Below the pieces are notes generated by a model. That model did not search any database. It saw nothing but the letters and a program-made list of their open reading frames with translations, and was not told where the DNA came from. A stretch of DNA of 64,000 nt from Escherchia phage Stokescottia, in the sequence record OR896820.1. One strand, given 5' to 3'. Shown piece after piece: positions 33,001 through 44,690 of the stretch (its first letter is position 1; every line of letters begins with the position of its first letter). The position numbers were made by a program, and so were the translations under genes.

Positions 33001-33224
33001 ATATTCATAAATTAGGGAACAGCGAGCCGATTACGCTGAGTGCAGAATCCCAACCGGAGCGCATTGAATAGAGTCGGTGGGTTAGTTGTAAAACTAGTAC
33101 ACAGGGGGCGGCAATTCCGGTTAGTGGCTAGAACGTGTAAAATGAGGCGTCTGAAACCTCTCCCCTAAACTCTTCTCTAATTTATAAATAGTGGGGTGTG
33201 GAAATCACTTATGTAGTAACACTG

Positions 33225-33295
33225 CCGTCCTAGTATAATTGGTATTATCAAGCCGTAACTGGTGGAAGATGTAGGTTCGAATCCTACGGTCGGTA
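33225..33295 (+). ncRNA. degenerate tRNA-like element
   Basis: Canonical T-arm GTAGG TTCGAAT CCTAC but no canonical acceptor or anticodon stems. Confidence 0.25.
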
Positions 33296-33797
33296 AGAAC
33301 TGGATAACTGGTGCTTTTAACGTAAAAGCTTCCGAGGTTAGTTGCGCACTGCCTAAACCACGCGGTAGTTGGTTCCAGACTAACCAACCAGTCTGCTGAA
33401 TAGTTTTATTACGATTTAACTATGTCCAGGCTAAAGAAGAACTTTAGAAGGTATTCTAGGATAGTGAAGTTCTTTCTCCATATCGGAGTAGTTTTTCAAG
33501 CTATCCACAAAGTGGGAAATGCTGACATGAGAGATGTCACTAATGGTGCACAATAGCACAGGTAATTCGCGATAATTCCTGTTGAGTAGCAGCAAAAGGC
33601 GGGAAGTCATGACCCCAAGCCTAACCGAGTCCTCAATATACCGCAGGACATAACCACTAAGTCACCCTGACTTAAACTGGAAAATAATAGACGTTACCGT
33701 ATTTTGTCTTGAAATACTTAATGAGTGGGACTTATGACTCTCCCGGTATCGTCTGTATTTTTAAGAGTTTTTACGAGAGTTCTTAAAAATACTTAAA

Positions 33798-38086: not shown

Positions 38087-38163
38087 GGGGGTGTAATCGA
38101 ATTGGCATAGGTACTGGACTTAAAATTCAGGTTTTGTGGGTTCGAATCCCACCACCACTACCA
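38087..38163 (+). tRNA. tRNA-Leu(TAA), atypical short variable loop
   Basis: Anticodon loop CTTAAAA, T-arm GTGGG TTCGAAT CCCAC, encoded CCA; one acceptor mismatch; 5-nt variable loop. Confidence 0.5.
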
Positions 38164-40423: not shown

Positions 40424-40525
40424 AATTCTGTGTAGAGTTAAGTAAACCGGTAGCCAATCAGCTATCATTGCTGACATCGAATTCAGCCACAGATACCATT
40501 TTCATTAATAACTGAGGAAACAAGC

Positions 40526-41171: not shown

Positions 41172-41563
41172 TAAAATTTCAGTGCAGAACACGGAGCTAG
41201 CAATTCGGAAGTGCTGACTCATGATAAGCTGCCTATGTACTTGCGAAGCGGTCGTGTCCAAGACTCGGACTCTTGCACTGAAAACAATCAAACATTCTAG
41301 CGTGGTTGATGGGGAAACCAGCTTGGCGAGGGCAGAAGCTCGTTCGATTCGAGTGAAAGAATGGTTCTCGTAAGTCCGCACAAGTGATAACAGGTTCGAG
41401 TCCTGTCTAGAATGACACTATAAAGTTTACTTATTATGTAGGTTCCGGTAGATCGGCGGGTCTATTCTGGCATTTAAGAGAGGTCTCGCAAACTTCTTTG
41501 TCAGCCGTGGGGTTGGTAGCCTCCAGGCGGCCTACACAATAAGTAAATTTATTAAAAATTCAT

Positions 41564-41949: not shown

Positions 41950-42138
41950 TTTTAATAGGGGATTTCGAAATGAAAGTATTTCGATTAGTAGTAAGTGACA
42001 AACGTTTAGGTAAGAATACCTCAAAATCATTACTTGCTCATTATGGTAAAAATTGGGATGAAGTAATGGTAGAGTTTAATACTAATCACCCTTACTTGAA
42101 AGTTCACTCTATTAAAGAAGTATACAATGGTTACTAAT

Positions 42139-42217
42139 AGATCGCTAGCTCAATAGGTTTAGTAGCATCCGACTTTTAATCGGAAGGTTCTGGGTTCGAG
42201 TCCCAGGCGATCTACCA
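42139..42217 (+). tRNA. tRNA-Lys(TTT)
   Basis: Acceptor AGATCGC/GCGATCT, anticodon arm TCCGA CTTTTAA TCGGA, CCA. Confidence 0.7.
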
Positions 42218-42236
42218 ATTTCAAGAAAAAACGCAG

Positions 42237-42265
42237 TTGCTTGATGCTTAATTTCTTGTTATAAT
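42237..42265 (+). promoter_or_regulatory. early-type promoter with long RNA leader
   Basis: TTGCTT, 17-nt spacer, TGTTATAAT, then TATAAATTGATGAGGAG box; no ORF before tRNA-Ala. Confidence 0.6.
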
Positions 42266-42503
42266 ATTTATATAAATTGATGAGGAGAAATCCTCATCAT
42301 AGTTCACTAAGGTATTAGCTCGACCTAGGACTGGCTGCCAAAAAGCACGATCCCCATGATTCGGGAGAAGTTCTAGATTGGTCCACTAGATTCAGCGGCA
42401 ACTGAATAGTGTATTGGGTTTGCGAGATGACGCAGTTCCTTCCGCTCGAAGCGAAGGTGCTGTAGTTACGCCGAGCTAATAGCCTTAGTAAACTAAAGAA
42501 TTT

Positions 42504-42582
42504 GGGGAATGGGTCTGCATGGAGTGGACACCTCGCTTGCACCGAGGACATCAGAACGGTTCGATTCCGTTATTCTCCACCA
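42504..42582 (+). tRNA. tRNA-Ala(TGC)
   Basis: Acceptor GGGGAAT/ATTCTCC with G3-U70, anticodon arm CCTCG CTTGCAC CGAGG, CCA. Confidence 0.7.
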
Positions 42583-42587
42583 AATAC

Positions 42588-42664
42588 GCGTGATTGATGG
42601 AATTGGCATACATACCGTCCTTAGAAGTCGGGTTTTGAGGGTTCGAATCCCTTGTCACGCACCA
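42588..42664 (+). tRNA. tRNA-Leu(TAG), atypical short variable loop
   Basis: Acceptor GCGTGAT/GTCACGC, loop CTTAGAA, T-arm GAGGG TTCGAAT CCCTT, CCA; 5-nt variable loop. Confidence 0.5.
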
Positions 42665-42776
42665 AATTTGATGGTCAGAGTAAATTAAACCTACTATCTC
42701 GGTTGAGCTGTTTTAATGGGTTCGAATCCCAGCGAGGCGTAACTGCCTGGTGTGATAGAGGCATCATCTTATTATT

Positions 42777-42867
42777 GGAAGAGCAAATCGAATTGGCGAC
42801 GAAAACCGCTTGGAAAGTGGCTGACTGGTAAAACGGCTTGAGAGTTCAAATCTCTCCTCTTCCGCCA
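42777..42867 (+). tRNA. tRNA-Ser(GGA)
   Basis: Acceptor GGAAGAG/CTCTTCC, loop TTGGAAA, long variable arm, T-arm GAGAG TTCAAAT CTCTC, CCA. Confidence 0.65.
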
Positions 42868-42886
42868 AACACTTGAGGTAATAATA

Positions 42887-43234
42887 ATGCTAGCAAAAGA
42901 TAAAGCTCTAGAGTTTTTAGCATCTTTAGATGAAGATAAGATTATAGATGCTGCTGAAAAAGCTGGAATGCCAGATTTAACATATCTGGAACGTGCTATT
43001 ATTGCTCGTGATAAACTACAGAAAGAGTTTGCTATTGCTCAGGAGGAGTTTTATACTCGCTATAACGCTCTTACTAAGCAAATTGAAAATGAGTGTTCTC
43101 ATACTTGGGGAGTAACAGAAAACCTAGGTAATGATCACGATGGCTGGTCTAAAGTAAAAATTACCTACTACCATCGTAGGACTTGTAAAATTTGTGGAAA
43201 AGTAGAAAACTTCACTAGTACGAGTGACTATTAG
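42887..43234 (+). CDS. hypothetical protein
   Basis: 115-aa ORF with C-terminal CxxC pair. Confidence 0.4.
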   Translation: MLAKDKALEFLASLDEDKIIDAAEKAGMPDLTYLERAIIARDKLQKEFAIAQEEFYTRYNALTKQIENECSHTWGVTENLGNDHDGWSKVKITYYHRRTCKICGKVENFTSTSDY

Positions 43235-43247
43235 TATAATAAATACT

Positions 43248-43337
43248 AGAAGATAGGACGTAGTGGTACGTAACTGGTCTTGAAAACTAGCCCGCTGTAG
43301 TGATACGGTGATGGTTCGACTCCATTATCTTCTGCCA
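43248..43337 (+). tRNA. tRNA-Ser(TGA)
   Basis: Acceptor AGAAGAT/ATCTTCT, anticodon arm CTGGT CTTGAAA ACTAG, long variable arm, CCA. Confidence 0.65.
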
Positions 43338-43889
43338 ATTAACTATAAGGAAATCTTATGAGCAAAACAGTTACTGTAACAATGAAGGATGGTAAAAAAT
43401 TTAAAGCATGTCTTCATGAAACAGATAAGGGATGGATGGCTTATTTGCCACACCTAGATTCCACCAGGTACGGAATGACCCAACGTGAAGCTATTGTTGA
43501 TGCTTTAAATGAGGCTTCTGCTGGTTTATAAAAATTCTTGAAGTATGCCGGAATTGGTAGACGGGGCTGCCTAAAAGGTTTATAGAGAACATCCACTCTC
43601 TACAACATACCTCATAAAGCGGCTGAGATAAATGGTCTATCTCGTGAAGGTTCAAGTCCTTCTGCTTCTTGATACATCTATGGCTCAAAGTGTAACGGTG
43701 CTATTTGATGCTCTTAGTAAGACTTCCCCGACATGCGTTCGGGAGTAAGCTGCTAAGGCTAGAGTAGAAGAGTTTCTGAGAGCCGCCACAATTGAAAATT
43801 CGTACTCGTCTTGAGCTGCGTGCAATAGGAGATAACTTGATTAGTATTCTAGAACATGCTAATTGAGGAAGGTTTCGCTAACCCTGCGA

Positions 43890-43966
43890 GTTTTCAATTG
43901 TGGCTATATCATAATTGGTTAATGATCCTGATTGTGAATCAGGCCTATGTGGATTCGAGTTCCACT
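43890..43966 (+). tRNA. tRNA-His(GTG)
   Basis: Acceptor GTGGCTA/TAGCCAC, D-stem TCAT/ATGA, anticodon arm CCTGA TTGTGAA TCAGG, CCA. Confidence 0.7.
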
Positions 43967-44001
43967 AGCCACCCCAAATTAACTTAAATAGGAAATAATA
44001 T

Positions 44002-44202
44002 ATGGCTGATTTCTGCAAACAATGCTCCATTGATATGTGGGGCAGAGATACTGGTGATCTTTCTGGTTTGATTACAGAAGCCGAAGTTAAAGAAGGCTAC
44101 GGTGCTGTTGTAATCTGTGAAGGTTGTGGTGTTATTCGTGTAGATCATGAAGGCAAACGTCTAGAAGAACCAGAACCAATAGCCACGGTTCCTGTAGAGT
44201 AA
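44002..44202 (+). CDS. hypothetical zinc-ribbon-like protein
   Basis: 66 aa with CKQC...CEGCG. Confidence 0.4.
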   Translation: MADFCKQCSIDMWGRDTGDLSGLITEAEVKEGYGAVVICEGCGVIRVDHEGKRLEEPEPIATVPVE

Positions 44203-44210
44203 AGAATTAT

Positions 44211-44286
44211 TGGAGTGTAGATCAATTGGCAGATCGTCGGCCTCTGACTTCGAAGGTTCCTGGTTCGATCCCAGGCACTCCAGCCA
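44211..44286 (+). tRNA. tRNA-Gln(CTG)
   Basis: Acceptor TGGAGTG/CACTCCA, loop CTCTGAC, T-arm CCTGG TTCGATC CCAGG, CCA. Confidence 0.65.
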
Positions 44287-44292
44287 AATAAT

Positions 44293-44368
44293 TGGAGAGT
44301 AGTGTAACGGTTAGCACAACGGCCTTTGACTCCGTTAATGGTAGGTTCGATTCCTCCTTCTCCAGCCA
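44293..44368 (+). tRNA. tRNA-Gln(TTG)
   Basis: Acceptor TGGAGAG/TTCTCCA, loop CTTTGAC, CCA; paralog of the preceding tRNA. Confidence 0.65.
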
Positions 44369-44376
44369 AACAATAA

Positions 44377-44452
44377 GCGGTTAAGCACACGGGTTGTGTC
44401 GCAGGCCTTCCAAGCCTCGCTGAGTAGGGTTCGATTCCCTCTAGCCGCTCCA
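44377..44452 (+). tRNA. tRNA-Gly(TCC)
   Basis: Acceptor GCGGTTA/TAGCCGC, anticodon loop CTTCCAA, T-loop TTCGATT, CCA. Confidence 0.6.
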
Positions 44453-44468
44453 ACTTTAAGGAAACGTT

Positions 44469-44690
44469 ATGCACGTTTTTGAGTTTCGTAATAAAAGTAC
44501 CGATAAACGAGTTATTGTTATTGGAGAAACATACCGAGCATATGAACAAACTGACGGCTCTGTTATCCTGAATGATGAGAAAGGGGGTTTTAGCTTTTAT
44601 CCCAAAGAAACTTACGAAGAATTTCGTACAAAGTTTCTTCTACCAGACTGGCTAGAAGTAGCGCAGCAACGAGAACCCGAAGATGGCTGA
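44469..44690 (+). CDS. hypothetical protein
   Basis: 73-aa ORF. Confidence 0.4.
   Translation: MHVFEFRNKSTDKRVIVIGETYRAYEQTDGSVILNDEKGGFSFYPKETYEEFRTKFLLPDWLEVAQQREPEDG

What the first reader, a model, noticed from the sequence alone, without database searches (positions are those of the whole stretch)
43540..43889. tRNA-like modules lacking a complete cloverleaf downstream of tRNA-Ser(TGA)
A Leu-type D-loop (CCGGAATTGGTAGACGG) and a canonical T-arm (GAAGG TTCAAGT CCTTC, 43646-43662) lie about 100 nt apart with no matching acceptor stem. A further ~200 nt non-coding stretch follows before tRNA-His. A similar orphan T-arm (ATGGG TTCGAAT CCCAG) sits at 42716-42732 between tRNA-Leu(TAG) and tRNA-Ser(GGA). 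These may be degraded tRNA genes, interrupted tRNAs or decoys.
Basis: seen in the sequence. Interest (0 to 1): 0.6.

Follow-up and report, generated by a model that had tools for sequence, protein, structure and literature searches.

The report
Known phage T5 stable small RNAs
The flagged stretch of this T5-like phage genome holds three small non-coding RNAs already annotated in phage T5 (a tRNA-shaped RNA that cannot decode, a hairpin RNA with a tRNA-like end, and an excised spacer hairpin), so the feature is real and conserved but known, with its function still open.

Summary
The window is a T5-like phage (99% identical to Escherichia phage BUCT632). Window 43537-43898 matches three features annotated in the T5 record AY543070: RNA1 ("tRNA-like stable RNA with unknown functions"), RNAI and RNAIII.

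- **RNA1 (43537-43681)** has a full cloverleaf: a 6-bp acceptor stem, a Leu-type D arm, an anticodon stem, a long variable arm and a T arm. A 48-nt two-helix extension with an invariant ACAUCCAC tip replaces the anticodon loop. In 26 distinct homologs, 96.9% of cells pair and 14 pairs show compensatory changes. It has no anticodon and no encoded CCA, so it is a selected, non-decoding tRNA-Leu derivative, not a pseudogene or an intron-bearing tRNA.
- **RNAI (43682-43788)** is a covarying rod hairpin that ends in GCCA.
- **RNAIII (43793-43898)** is a spacer closed by a 20-bp stem. The stem pairs RNAI's CCA tail with the 5' strand of tRNA-His. At least six unrelated spacer versions keep this stem, and the annotated ends leave a 2-nt 3' overhang, which points to RNase III excision.
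- **The T-arm at 42716-42732** is a conserved, covarying hairpin without a cloverleaf.

Function remains unknown. My best guess for RNA1 is a tRNA-shaped decoy or ligand, held with low confidence.

The parts
43537..43681 (+). RNA1 homolog: a tRNA-Leu-derived, non-decoding tRNA-like RNA. Boundaries are those of T5 misc_RNA rna1, and the 3' trailer 43672-43681 is included.
   Evidence: blastn to T5 rna1 covers 1-144 at 86.4% identity. T5 annotation. Model R1 scores 168.8 bits. The Rfam tRNA model gives 25 bits over 43539-43670.
43540..43545 (+). RNA1 acceptor stem, 5' strand GAAGUA. It pairs with 43663-43668 (UGCUUC).
   Evidence: Six pairs, four of them with changes on both sides, 97.4% of cells paired (helix 1). 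Variants seen: GAAGUA/UGCUUC, GAAGUA/UACUUC, GGAAUA/UGUUCC, GGAAUA/UAUUCC, GGAGUA/UACUCC.
43548..43564 (+). RNA1 D arm of Leu type: CCG-GAAUUGGUAGA-CGG, with the GG that contacts the T loop.
   Evidence: The stem never varies beyond one G-U, and the loop is nearly invariant. RNAalifold proposes an alternative local pairing, UGCCG/CGGUA. The closest non-self hits of model R1 are the two tRNA-Leu genes.
43566..43623 (+). RNA1 extended 'anticodon' arm. A 5-bp anticodon-type stem (43566-70 with 43619-23) encloses a 48-nt insert: an A-rich internal loop, a 4-bp helix (43576-79 with 43609-12), a second internal loop, a 6-bp helix (43583-88 with 43597-602) and the 8-nt apical loop ACAUCCAC (43589-43596).
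   Evidence: Helices 3, 4 and 5 have 3, 2 and 4 pairs with changes on both sides. The apical loop is identical in 25 of 26 distinct sequences; T5 has ACAUCCGC.
43625..43643 (+). RNA1 long variable arm: GAGAUA-AAUGGUC-UAUCUC.
   Evidence: Helix 6 is 99.4% paired, and pair 93/105 occurs as A-U, U-A and C-G. The loop AAUGGUC is identical in 25 of 26 sequences.
43646..43662 (+). RNA1 T arm: GAAGG-UUCAAGU-CCUUC.
Evidence: Helix 7 is 100% paired.
43682..43788 (+). RNAI homolog: a 107-nt rod-like hairpin RNA with terminal stem GGCUC/GAGCC and a single-stranded 3' GCCA.
   Evidence: blastn to T5 rnaI covers 1-107 at 91.6%. The consensus fold has 21 pairs, 98.3% paired, 7 with changes on both sides, against 24-49% paired in slid controls. 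Fold z-score -2.2. Klebsiella phage Sealy has GGCCC/GGGCC plus ACCA.
43785..43904 (+). 20-bp terminal duplex. It pairs the 3' tail of RNAI (GCCACAAUUGAAAAUUCGUA) with the sequence that runs into the first five bases of tRNA-His (...UGCGAGUUUUCAAUUGUGGC). Inferred RNase III site.
   Evidence: Fold energy -46.8 kcal/mol, z-score -6.81, and 0 of 200 shuffles fold as well. The stem is kept in at least six otherwise unrelated spacer versions of 43-158 nt.
43793..43898 (+). RNAIII homolog: a 106-nt excised spacer hairpin. Its 5' base 43793 pairs with 43896, which leaves a 2-nt 3' overhang.
   Evidence: blastn to T5 rnaIII covers 1-106 at 99.1%. Pairing table.
43900..43976 (+). tRNA-His(GUG). Its 5' acceptor strand is sequestered in the RNAIII stem in the precursor.
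   Evidence: ARAGORN, Rfam 58.6 bits, fold.
42665..42775 (+). Conserved spacer between tRNA-Leu(UAG) and tRNA-Ser(GGA). It contains the 'orphan' T-arm-like hairpin (42716-42732) and a second small hairpin (about 42734-42747). There is no cloverleaf.
   Evidence: Found in 251 phage records, never annotated as an RNA. The T-stem occurs as UGGG/CCCA, CGGG/CCCG and CAGG/CCUG, and the second stem as AGGC/GCCU, GGGC/GCCC and AGGG/CCCU. The whole-region fold is no better than shuffles, z = 0.05. There is no tRNA-model hit at E<=10.
43211..43240 (+). Promoter-like site (TTCACT-18-TATAAT) upstream of tRNA-Ser(UGA). It is a candidate start of the transcript that carries tRNA-Ser, the 57-aa ORF, RNA1, RNAI, RNAIII and tRNA-His.
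   Evidence: Consensus scan only, 10 of 12 matches. The number of promoter-like sites in the region is no higher than in shuffles, so this is weak.

Best explanation
**Identity (well supported).** Window 43537-43898 encodes three small non-coding RNAs. They are co-transcribed with the neighbouring tRNAs and cut out of the precursor by host RNases. They are the homologs of the phage T5 RNAs annotated as RNA1, RNAI and RNAIII.

**RNA1.** It is derived from a class-II, Leu-type tRNA and keeps the whole L-shaped body: acceptor stem, D/T elbow, long variable arm and T arm. It has lost both parts that would let it act in translation. The anticodon loop is replaced by a rigid two-helix extension that ends in an invariant ACAUCCAC loop, and no CCA is encoded. 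It therefore cannot decode and is probably not charged.

**RNAI.** It is a rod hairpin with a tRNA-like GGCUC/GAGCC-GCCA end. That is the kind of end RNase P (5' side) and 3' exonucleases recognise. This step is inferred.

**RNAIII.** It is a spacer whose only conserved property is a long perfect stem that pairs RNAI's CCA tail with the 5' strand of tRNA-His. RNase III most likely cuts this stem, which releases RNAIII and frees RNAI and tRNA-His. This is inferred from duplex length, conservation of the stem and the 2-nt 3' overhang of the annotated ends.

**Function of RNA1 (inferred, low confidence, about 0.25).** I propose a tRNA-shaped ligand or decoy that occupies a host or phage factor that recognises the tRNA body, such as a tRNA-targeting defence nuclease, a processing or modification enzyme, or LeuRS, without entering translation. 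The two invariant loops would be specific contact points.

**The T-arm at 42716-42732.** It is a separate, conserved two-hairpin spacer element, not a tRNA.
For: **Identity**
- The T5 record lists rna1, rnaI and rnaIII between T5.063 and tRNA-His.
- The window aligns collinearly with T5, and blastn maps all three full-length.

**RNA1 structure**
- 35 pairs, 96.9% paired, 14 pairs with double changes. None of 500 shuffles reach the observed values, and slid controls pair at 41-51%.
- RNAalifold and single-sequence folding give the same structure, apart from RNAalifold's different D-arm pairing.
- The internal loops where an anticodon would lie vary between lineages, while the apical and variable-arm loops are invariant.

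**Leu-type origin**
- The best non-self hits of the RNA1 model are tRNA-Leu(UAA) at 25.5 bits and tRNA-Leu(UAG) at 22.9 bits, ahead of Ser and Tyr.

**No CCA**
- All 21 ARAGORN tRNAs and RNAI end in an encoded CCA. RNA1 is followed by UUGAUA.

**Independent module**
- Sugarland-type Klebsiella phages keep RNA1 in another gene context, without RNAI or RNAIII.
- Phage Sealy has RNAI, a spacer and tRNA-His directly after tRNA-Ser, without RNA1.

**RNAI**
-.

**RNAIII and RNase III**
- z-score -6.8.
- Spacers of 43, 78, 121, 148 and 158 nt, plus the Sealy version, all keep a terminal stem of 11-19 bp that starts at CCA:UGG.
- The annotated ends give exactly a 2-nt 3' overhang for RNAIII. The same holds independently for RNA2H at 42313-42484.

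**Context**
- T5 tRNAs are documented counter-defence tools (PMC11555353; PMC10644984; bioRxiv 10.64898/2026.07.10.737580, read).
Against: - No expression, end-mapping or binding data could be examined. 'Stable RNA' rests on the wording of the T5 GenBank annotation, whose experimental basis I could not read. No paper in the searchable library describes these RNAs.
- RNA1's mature ends are uncertain. The stem can be extended by U.U mismatches plus C-G and U-A pairs, and to about 12 bp in Sugarland. That is unlike a normal RNase P substrate.
- Nothing identifies a partner for the invariant loops, so the decoy role is pure inference.
- RNA1 is less conserved in sequence than RNAIII or tRNA-His (86% against 99% to T5).
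- The covariation sample consists of related phages, so shuffle statistics overstate significance. The slid-partner control is the fairer test and still supports the structure.
- RNase III and RNase P involvement is inferred from geometry only.
Confidence: 0.72

Rival explanations
1. Processing and stability elements only. The tRNA-like and hairpin modules act in cis as RNase P and RNase III 'punctuation', and as 3'-end protectors for the polycistronic tRNA/small-ORF transcript. The stable RNAs are long-lived by-products with no function in trans.
For: RNAIII fits this well. Its interior is replaced wholesale between phages, and only the terminal stem is kept. RNA2H shows the same end geometry. 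RNA1 and RNAI sit exactly at junctions between an ORF, RNAs and a tRNA. The T5 record gives no function for any of them.
Against: Punctuation does not need an invariant 8-nt apical loop, an invariant variable-arm loop, or a covarying 48-nt extension. RNA1 is retained in Sugarland-type phages in a context without adjacent tRNAs or RNAI. The 20-nt 5' and 22-nt 3' segments of RNAI are invariant well beyond what pairing requires.
Confidence: 0.3
2. Degraded tRNA pseudogenes or scars left by homing-endonuclease traffic in the tRNA island, drifting neutrally.
For: The island is mosaic. HNH endonuclease genes interrupt it in T5 (PMC2330249). The orphan T-arm spacer at 42665-42775 is replaced by hegC in T5 and has no cloverleaf and no excess fold stability.
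Against: For RNA1 and RNAI, compensatory changes maintain every helix and the loops are invariant across Tequintavirus, Epseptimavirus and Sugarlandvirus. Even the orphan T-arm covaries and is conserved in 251 records, including a T4-like Erwinia phage.
Confidence: 0.05
3. An intron-containing tRNA-Leu gene whose roughly 41-nt insert is removed to give a functional tRNA.
For: The insert lies in the anticodon loop, where tRNA introns occur. The body is Leu-like. The Rfam tRNA model spans it with one long insertion.
Against: No consistent anticodon loop can be rebuilt, because the junction bases differ between lineages and T5 has G at the U33 position. The insert is far shorter than a self-splicing group I intron, and no intron family is hit at E<=10. 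From general knowledge, E. coli has no tRNA splicing endonuclease. No CCA is encoded, unlike all 21 tRNAs of the island. The insert's own helices and loop are under selection.
Confidence: 0.02
4. The interval encodes small proteins, as many GenBank records annotate 'hypothetical protein' over it.
For: Several T5-like records carry CDS features under the match. ORFs of 38-65 aa exist on both strands.
Against: A 1-nt indel separates lineages inside RNA1 (column 80). Substitutions are paired across helices rather than following codon periodicity. RNAIII is replaced by unrelated sequence of different length. The curated T5 record annotates RNAs here, not CDSs.
Confidence: 0.02

Closest known systems
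Phage T5 stable RNAs RNA1, RNAI and RNAIII (misc_RNA features of GenBank AY543070; also RNA2, RNA3, RNAIV, RNA2H and RNAX of the same tRNA region)
   Same: Direct homologs: same order, same neighbours (T5.063 ORF upstream, tRNA-His downstream), full-length matches at 86%, 92% and 99% identity. All eight T5 misc_RNAs map onto the window.
   Different: Allelic differences only, such as compensatory substitutions in RNA1 helices and 145 nt against 144 nt. The upstream part of the island differs: the window has no hegC and carries different tRNA-Ala and tRNA-Leu alleles.
Phage T4 species 1 and species 2 RNAs (rnaC, rnaD)
   Same: These are small stable RNAs of unknown function encoded inside a phage tRNA cluster and released from tRNA precursors. 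rnaC ends with a T-arm (CCGGG-UUCGAAU-CCCGG) followed by a short 3' strand.
   Different: There is no sequence homology beyond the generic 13-nt T loop. The architecture differs from RNA1, with no Leu-type D arm and no extended anticodon arm.
Canonical class-II tRNA-Leu
   Same: 3-bp D stem with a GAAUUGGUAGA loop, long variable arm, and a GGUUCAAGUCC T loop. The tRNA-Leu genes are the best non-self hits of the RNA1 model.
   Different: No 7-nt anticodon loop, no anticodon, no A73-CCA, and a 6-bp acceptor stem. The Rfam score is below the gathering threshold.
RNase III processing stalks (rRNA operon spacers, T7 early mRNA sites). The comparison rests on general knowledge.
   Same: A near-perfect duplex of about 20 bp formed by sequences flanking a structured insert. 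The product ends have a 2-nt 3' overhang.
   Different: Here the stem incorporates the CCA tail of one RNA and the first bases of a tRNA. Cleavage has not been demonstrated.
Bacterial and phage Y-RNA-like YrlA tRNA mimics, and tmRNA
   Same: Non-decoding RNAs that contain a tRNA-like domain.
   Different: No Rfam match to YrlA or tmRNA families at E<=10 in 42100-44500 and no ARAGORN tmRNA call. In RNA1 the termini lie in the acceptor stem and the extension is in the anticodon arm, which is the opposite of the YrlA topology as I know it from general knowledge.

Membership tests
T5 RNA1 / RNAI / RNAIII (AY543070 misc_RNAs) | Full-length sequence homology to the annotated T5 features | tested here: met
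   blastn gives 1-144 at 86.4%, 1-107 at 91.6% and 1-106 at 99.1%. Alignment.
T5 RNA1 / RNAI / RNAIII (AY543070 misc_RNAs) | Same genomic position: after the T5.063-like ORF and before tRNA-His, on the tRNA strand | tested here: met
T5 RNA1 / RNAI / RNAIII (AY543070 misc_RNAs) | Accumulates as a discrete stable RNA in infected cells | not testable with these tools
   Only the wording of the T5 annotation is available. No paper was retrievable.
Canonical tRNA (Rfam RF00005 / ARAGORN) | Cloverleaf with acceptor, D, anticodon and T stems | tested here: met
Canonical tRNA (Rfam RF00005 / ARAGORN) | Score at or above the family threshold, or a tRNA-finder call | tested here: not met
   25 bits against a gathering score of 29. 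ARAGORN makes no call.
Canonical tRNA (Rfam RF00005 / ARAGORN) | 7-nt anticodon loop with U33 and a conserved anticodon | tested here: not met
   48 nt lie between the anticodon-stem strands, and the junction bases vary between lineages.
Canonical tRNA (Rfam RF00005 / ARAGORN) | 3' discriminator plus CCA, which is encoded in every tRNA of this island | tested here: not met
   21 of 21 tRNAs have CCA. RNA1 is followed by UUGAUA.
tRNA with group I intron (for example cyanobacterial tRNA-Leu(UAA)) | Self-splicing intron of about 200 nt or more with group I core helices, inserted in the anticodon loop | tested here: not met
   The insert is about 41 nt, and no intron family is hit at E<=10.
RNase III substrate (RNAIII stalk) | About two turns of near-perfect duplex | tested here: met
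   20 bp, z-score -6.8. Conserved across spacer variants.
RNase III substrate (RNAIII stalk) | Product termini staggered with a 2-nt 3' overhang | tested here: met
   43793 pairs with 43896 and the 3' end is at 43898. RNA2H: 42313 pairs with 42482 and the 3' end is at 42484. The ends are taken from the T5 annotation.
RNase III substrate (RNAIII stalk) | Cleavage depends on RNase III in vivo or in vitro | not testable with these tools
RNase P substrate (5' end of RNAI) | Terminal helix followed by single-stranded NCCA | tested here: met
   GGCUC/GAGCC plus GCCA, 100% paired. Sealy has GGCCC/GGGCC plus ACCA.
RNase P substrate (5' end of RNAI) | Cleavage by RNase P | not testable with these tools
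T4 rnaC / rnaD | Sequence homology | tested here: not met
   Only a 13-nt T-loop match that is shared with ordinary tRNAs.
tmRNA / YrlA tRNA-like RNAs | Match to the family model | tested here: not met
   No ARAGORN tmRNA call. The only Rfam tmRNA-family matches at E<=10 are weak partial hits inside tRNA-Ala at 42555-42609, outside the finding, and there is no YrlA hit.

The most novel reading that the evidence does not exclude
RNA1 is an RNA-based counter-defence or host-takeover factor. It would be a tRNA-Leu-shaped decoy that cannot be consumed by translation. Its invariant ACAUCCAC and AAUGGUC loops would capture or inhibit a tRNA-recognising host protein, such as an abortive-infection tRNase, or would pair with tRNA 3' ends (UGGU could pair with ACCA, as in T-box RNAs). 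A second, smaller novelty would be that RNase III, not RNase P, makes the 5' end of T5-type tRNA-His and leaves a U at position -1.
Probability: 0.15. Interest if true: 0.75.

Novelty: already known. Interest (0 to 1): 0.3.

Why it matters
The existence of these RNAs is not new. The T5 reference genome already annotates them, and they are conserved in hundreds of T5-like phages.

What remains open is what they do, a question decades old on the evidence of the T5 annotation. It matters more now that T5 tRNAs have been shown to neutralise tRNA-cleaving defence systems. A strongly selected, non-decoding tRNA mimic in the same island is an obvious candidate for a related role.

There is also a practical point. 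Most GenBank records of T5-like phages leave these loci unannotated or place spurious 'hypothetical protein' ORFs over them. The structures and coordinates given here could be used to annotate them correctly.

Tried and rejected
- **Standard finders.** ARAGORN and Rfam at gathering threshold make no call in 43540-43890 or 42665-42775. The permissive Rfam scan gives only the sub-threshold tRNA hit for RNA1 and nothing for RNAI, RNAIII or the orphan T-arm.
- **Literature.** Five searches found no paper describing T5 RNA1, RNAI or RNAIII. The older primary literature is evidently not in the library. Two recent T5 and BF23 papers do not mention them.
- **IMG/VR pattern scan.** GAACATCC-N25-45-AAATGGTCTA gave 54 loci. 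30 of the 54 are T5-like; the rest are chance matches with no RNA1-like hit to model R1. I found no homolog outside Demerecviridae.
- **E. coli genomes.** blastn of RNA1 found nothing at E<=10, so host tRNA-Leu similarity could not be shown that way.
- **T4 homology.** Homology of the orphan T-arm or RNA1 to T4 rnaC and rnaD is rejected, because only the generic T loop matches.
- **Flanking ORFs.** Pfam search of the three flanking small ORFs gave nothing above threshold, only a weak LSM hit (E 0.015) for the 57-aa ORF. My impression that this ORF looks HicB-like is therefore unsupported.
- **Intramolecular loop pairing.** Pairing between RNA1's two invariant loops was considered by eye. At most 3 bp are possible, so it was not pursued.
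- **Loop targets.** A search for targets complementary to the 7-8-nt loops was not run, because several chance matches are expected in 64 kb.
Full report
**What the window is.** The region 42100-44500 is 99.0% identical to Escherichia phage BUCT632. It matches 598 phage records, mostly T5-like phages of Salmonella, Escherichia and Klebsiella. ARAGORN finds 21 tRNA genes on the + strand between 33.8 and 45.9 kb, so this is the tRNA island of a T5-like phage (family Demerecviridae).

**Checking the observation.**
- CCGGAATTGGTAGACGG at 43548-43564.
- GAAGG-TTCAAGT-CCTTC at 43646-43662.
- ATGGG-TTCGAAT-CCCAG at 42716-42732.

ARAGORN and Rfam at gathering threshold call nothing there. With permissive thresholds, the Rfam tRNA model aligns end to end over 43539-43670. 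It scores 25 bits (E 0.028), below its gathering score of 29.

**Identity.** The curated T5 record AY543070 annotates three misc_RNA features between the small ORF T5.063 and tRNA-His:
- rna1, "tRNA-like stable RNA with unknown functions", 144 nt.
- rnaI, "stable RNA with unknown functions", 107 nt.
- rnaIII, also "stable RNA with unknown functions", 106 nt.

The window aligns collinearly with this T5 segment. blastn maps the three features full-length:

| T5 feature | Window coordinates | Identity |
|---|---|---|
| rna1 | 43537-43681 | 86.4% |
| rnaI | 43682-43788 | 91.6% |
| rnaIII | 43793-43898 | 99.1% |

The other five T5 misc_RNAs also map onto the window:

| T5 feature | Window coordinates |
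|---|---|
| RNA2H | 42313-42484 |
| RNAIV | 41436-41538 |
| RNA2 | 41293-41417 |
| RNA3 | 40426-40498 |
| RNAX | 33168-33797 |

The finding is therefore a rediscovery of annotated T5 features.

**RNA1 anatomy.** I collected homologs from IMG/VR and GenBank and obtained 26 distinct sequences from Tequintavirus, Epseptimavirus, Sugarlandvirus and Pectobacterium phage DU_PP_V.
- **Acceptor stem:** GAAGUA (43540-45) pairs with UGCUUC (43663-68).
- **D arm:** U8-G9, then a 3-bp Leu-type D stem with the loop GAAUUGGUAGA.
- **Anticodon stem:** 5 bp (43566-70 with 43619-23).
- **Variable arm:** 6 bp with the loop AAUGGUC.
- **T arm:** GAAGG-UUCAAGU-CCUUC.

Where a 7-nt anticodon loop should be there are 48 nt. 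They form an A-rich internal loop, a 4-bp helix, a second internal loop, a 6-bp helix and the apical loop ACAUCCAC.

The comparative support is strong:
- 96.9% of 908 cells form standard pairs, and 14 of 35 pairs show changes on both sides.
- None of 500 shuffles reach the observed values.
- When the partners are slid by 1-3 columns, pairing falls to 41-51% and at most 3 pairs show double changes.
- RNAalifold recovers the acceptor stem, the extended arm, the variable arm and the T arm independently. It proposes a different local pairing for the D arm. The single-sequence minimum-free-energy fold agrees with RNAalifold throughout.
- Both hairpin loops are identical in 25 of 26 sequences. The internal-loop bases at the position of the anticodon differ between lineages.

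A covariance model of RNA1 finds the window's two tRNA-Leu genes as its best non-self hits (25.5 and 22.9 bits), ahead of tRNA-Ser and tRNA-Tyr. This supports a Leu-type origin. All 21 tRNAs of the island, and RNAI, end in an encoded CCA. RNA1 is followed by UUGAUA.

RNA1 is thus a selected tRNA derivative that cannot decode and has no ready-made acceptor end.
- It is not a pseudogene, because covariation maintains it.
- It is not an intron-bearing tRNA. No common anticodon loop can be rebuilt, T5 has G at the U33 position, the insert is about 41 nt, no intron family is hit, and the insert itself is under selection.

**RNA1 is an independent module.**
- Sugarland-type Klebsiella phages keep only the RNA1 part of the query, in a different gene context and without RNAI or RNAIII.
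- Klebsiella phage Sealy has tRNA-Ser followed directly by RNAI, a spacer and tRNA-His, without RNA1.
- UTK0008 and PRF-SP13 have about 130 extra nucleotides between RNA1 and RNAI.

**RNAI.** Twenty-two distinct sequences fall into two types. Their middles are barely alignable, but the 20-nt 5' segment and the 22-nt 3' segment are invariant. The consensus fold is a rod:
- The terminal stem is GGCUC/GAGCC, followed by single-stranded GCCA.
- The inner helices covary. 98.3% of cells are paired and 7 pairs show double changes, against 24-49% paired in slid controls.
- Sealy has GGCCC/GGGCC plus ACCA, a compensatory change in the terminal stem.

A terminal helix plus NCCA is what RNase P and the 3' exonucleases recognise. 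That would explain why the T5 record places the RNA1 3' end and the RNAI 5' end next to each other. This is inference.

**RNAIII.** Folding 43785-43906 gives a 20-bp terminal duplex at -46.8 kcal/mol with z = -6.81. The duplex pairs GCCACAAUUGAAAAUUCGUA, which includes RNAI's CCA, with UGCGAGUUUUCAAUUGUGGC, which includes the first five bases of tRNA-His.

Between RNAI's CCA and tRNA-His, the collected phages carry at least six unrelated spacers. Five measure 43, 78, 121, 148 and 158 nt when RNAI's CCA and the first 7 nt of tRNA-His are included; the Sealy version is the sixth. Every one keeps a terminal stem of 11-19 uninterrupted base pairs. In every case the stem begins by pairing CCA with the 5' end of tRNA-His, even in Sealy, where the tRNA-His acceptor sequence is different.

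With the T5-annotated ends, base 43793 pairs with 43896 and the 3' end is 43898, which is a 2-nt 3' overhang. RNA2H (42313-42484) independently shows the same geometry: 42313 pairs with 42482 and the 3' end is 42484. A duplex of about 20 bp and 2-nt 3' overhangs are the signature of RNase III.

I therefore infer that RNAIII and RNA2H are spacers excised by RNase III. The selected feature would be the processing stalk, not the interior. The remaining CAAU on RNAI would then be trimmed back to CCA. The cut would leave U43899 as the 5' base of the tRNA-His transcript. That matches the T5 record, which annotates tRNA-His one base longer at the 5' end.

**The second 'orphan' T-arm.** The spacer 42665-42775 between tRNA-Leu(UAG) and tRNA-Ser(GGA) is present in 251 phage records and is never annotated. 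In T5 itself the HNH endonuclease gene hegC occupies this position.
- The spacer has no cloverleaf and no tRNA-model hit, and its overall fold is no better than shuffles (z = 0.05).
- Its 3' half (about 42705-42775) is nevertheless conserved in Pectobacterium phage DU_PP_V and in Sugarland-like Klebsiella phages.
- A shorter stretch that includes the T-arm-like hairpin (39 nt aligned, 89.7% identity, E 2e-4) also lies in the tRNA cluster of the T4-like Erwinia phage IT22.
- The T-stem covaries (UGGG/CCCA, CGGG/CCCG, CAGG/CCUG), and so does the following small hairpin (AGGC/GCCU, GGGC/GCCC, AGGG/CCCU).

It is a conserved two-hairpin element of unknown role, not a tRNA gene. With only four variants I cannot say more.

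**Mechanism and function.**
- *Shown:* homology to the T5 RNAs, the structures, their covariation, the absence of an anticodon and of CCA in RNA1, and the conserved stalk.
- *Inferred:* processing by RNase III (RNAIII, RNA2H) and by RNase P plus exonucleases (RNAI), and co-transcription from a promoter-like site at 43211-43240 (weak).
- *Guess, about 0.25:* RNA1 acts in trans as a tRNA-shaped ligand or decoy. The arguments are selection on loops that processing would not need, retention as a stand-alone module, and the documented use of T5 tRNAs against tRNA-cleaving defences (PMC11555353; PMC10644984; bioRxiv 10.64898/2026.07.10.737580).
- *Main rival, about 0.3:* all three RNAs are cis-acting processing or stability elements whose stable products have no function of their own. 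This fits RNAIII well and RNA1 less well.

**Comparison with known systems.**
- The features are members of the T5 RNA1, RNAI and RNAIII set.
- They work like the T4 species 1 and 2 RNAs (rnaC, rnaD), which are small stable RNAs of unknown function in a phage tRNA cluster. They are not homologous to them.
- RNA1 fails three defining tests of a canonical tRNA: family score, anticodon loop and CCA.
- RNA1 does not match tmRNA or YrlA models.

**Verdict.** The finding is real, conserved and structured, but already known. Its function is still unknown. Interest is modest (0.3), and it would rise sharply if RNA1 proved to be an anti-defence decoy.

Noticed in passing
window 38087-38163 and 42588-42664: Both tRNA-Leu genes (UAA and UAG) are 77 nt with a 5-nt variable loop, so they have the shape of class-I tRNAs. 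The T5 tRNA-Leu(UAG) is 85 nt with a long variable arm. A Leu tRNA without the long arm is unusual for bacteria and their phages.
   Followed up: partly
window 43899-43900: tRNA-His has U, not the usual G, at position -1, and C at the discriminator position. The T5 record annotates its tRNA-His one base longer at the 5' end, which would include this U. That base is exactly the 5' nucleotide the inferred RNase III cut would leave.
   Followed up: partly
window 42313-42484 (stem extends to about 42300-42495): This is the homolog of T5 RNA2H (96.5% identical), a 172-nt structured RNA closed by a stem of about 18 bp. The annotated ends give a 2-nt 3' overhang, like RNAIII, which suggests a second spacer excised by RNase III.
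   Followed up: partly
window 42776-42868 and 44376-44449: A tRNA-Ser(GGA) gene (homolog of T5 tRNA-Ser2) and a Gly(UCC)-like tRNA gene are missed by ARAGORN and by Rfam at gathering threshold. They appear only as weak tRNA-Sec-model hits of 19.7 and 30.9 bits.
   Followed up: no
window 41293-41417, 41436-41538, 40426-40498, 33168-33797: These are homologs of the other T5 'stable RNAs': RNA2 (tRNA-like), RNAIV, RNA3 (putative tRNA-like, ends in ACCA) and the RNAX region of about 630 nt (719 nt in T5). All are present in the window. None is called by ARAGORN or Rfam under these names.
   Followed up: no
window 43686-43692 with 43776-43781 (RNAI): The invariant internal loop next to RNAI's terminal stem (GGCUC-AAA-G[A/U]GU... 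opposite ...UC[U/G]GA-GAGCC) has the layout of a kink-turn: a 3-nt bulge followed by possible tandem G.A pairs. This was seen by eye only.
   Followed up: no
L067 395-460 (Erwinia phage IT22, T4-like) against window 42705-42775: A near-copy of the orphan T-arm element lies between two tRNA-Met genes of a T4-like Straboviridae phage. The match is 39 nt at 89.7% identity, E 2e-4, and the adjacent hairpin covaries. The element is therefore shared across phage families.
   Followed up: partly
window 43358-43531: A 57-aa ORF, the homolog of T5.063, lies directly upstream of RNA1. It has only a weak, sub-threshold LSM-domain hit (E 0.015). It is absent upstream of RNA1 in UTK0008, where RNA1 directly follows the 3' end of an unannotated tRNA-Ser-like sequence.
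   Followed up: partly
window 43540-43890 and homologs in GenBank: Many T5-like GenBank records annotate 'hypothetical protein' CDSs over RNA1, RNAI and RNAIII, or leave them blank. A 1-nt indel in RNA1 and wholesale replacement of the spacer argue that these ORFs are spurious.
   Followed up: partly
window 43631-43637, 43692-43701; T5 RNA2 (L001 10960-11084, - strand): A D-loop-like AAYGGU motif recurs in three places: the RNA1 variable-arm loop (AAUGGUC), the invariant 5' segment of RNAI (GUAACGGUGC) and T5 RNA2 (GAAUGGUUC). These may be relics of tRNA D loops or a shared recognition element.
   Followed up: no
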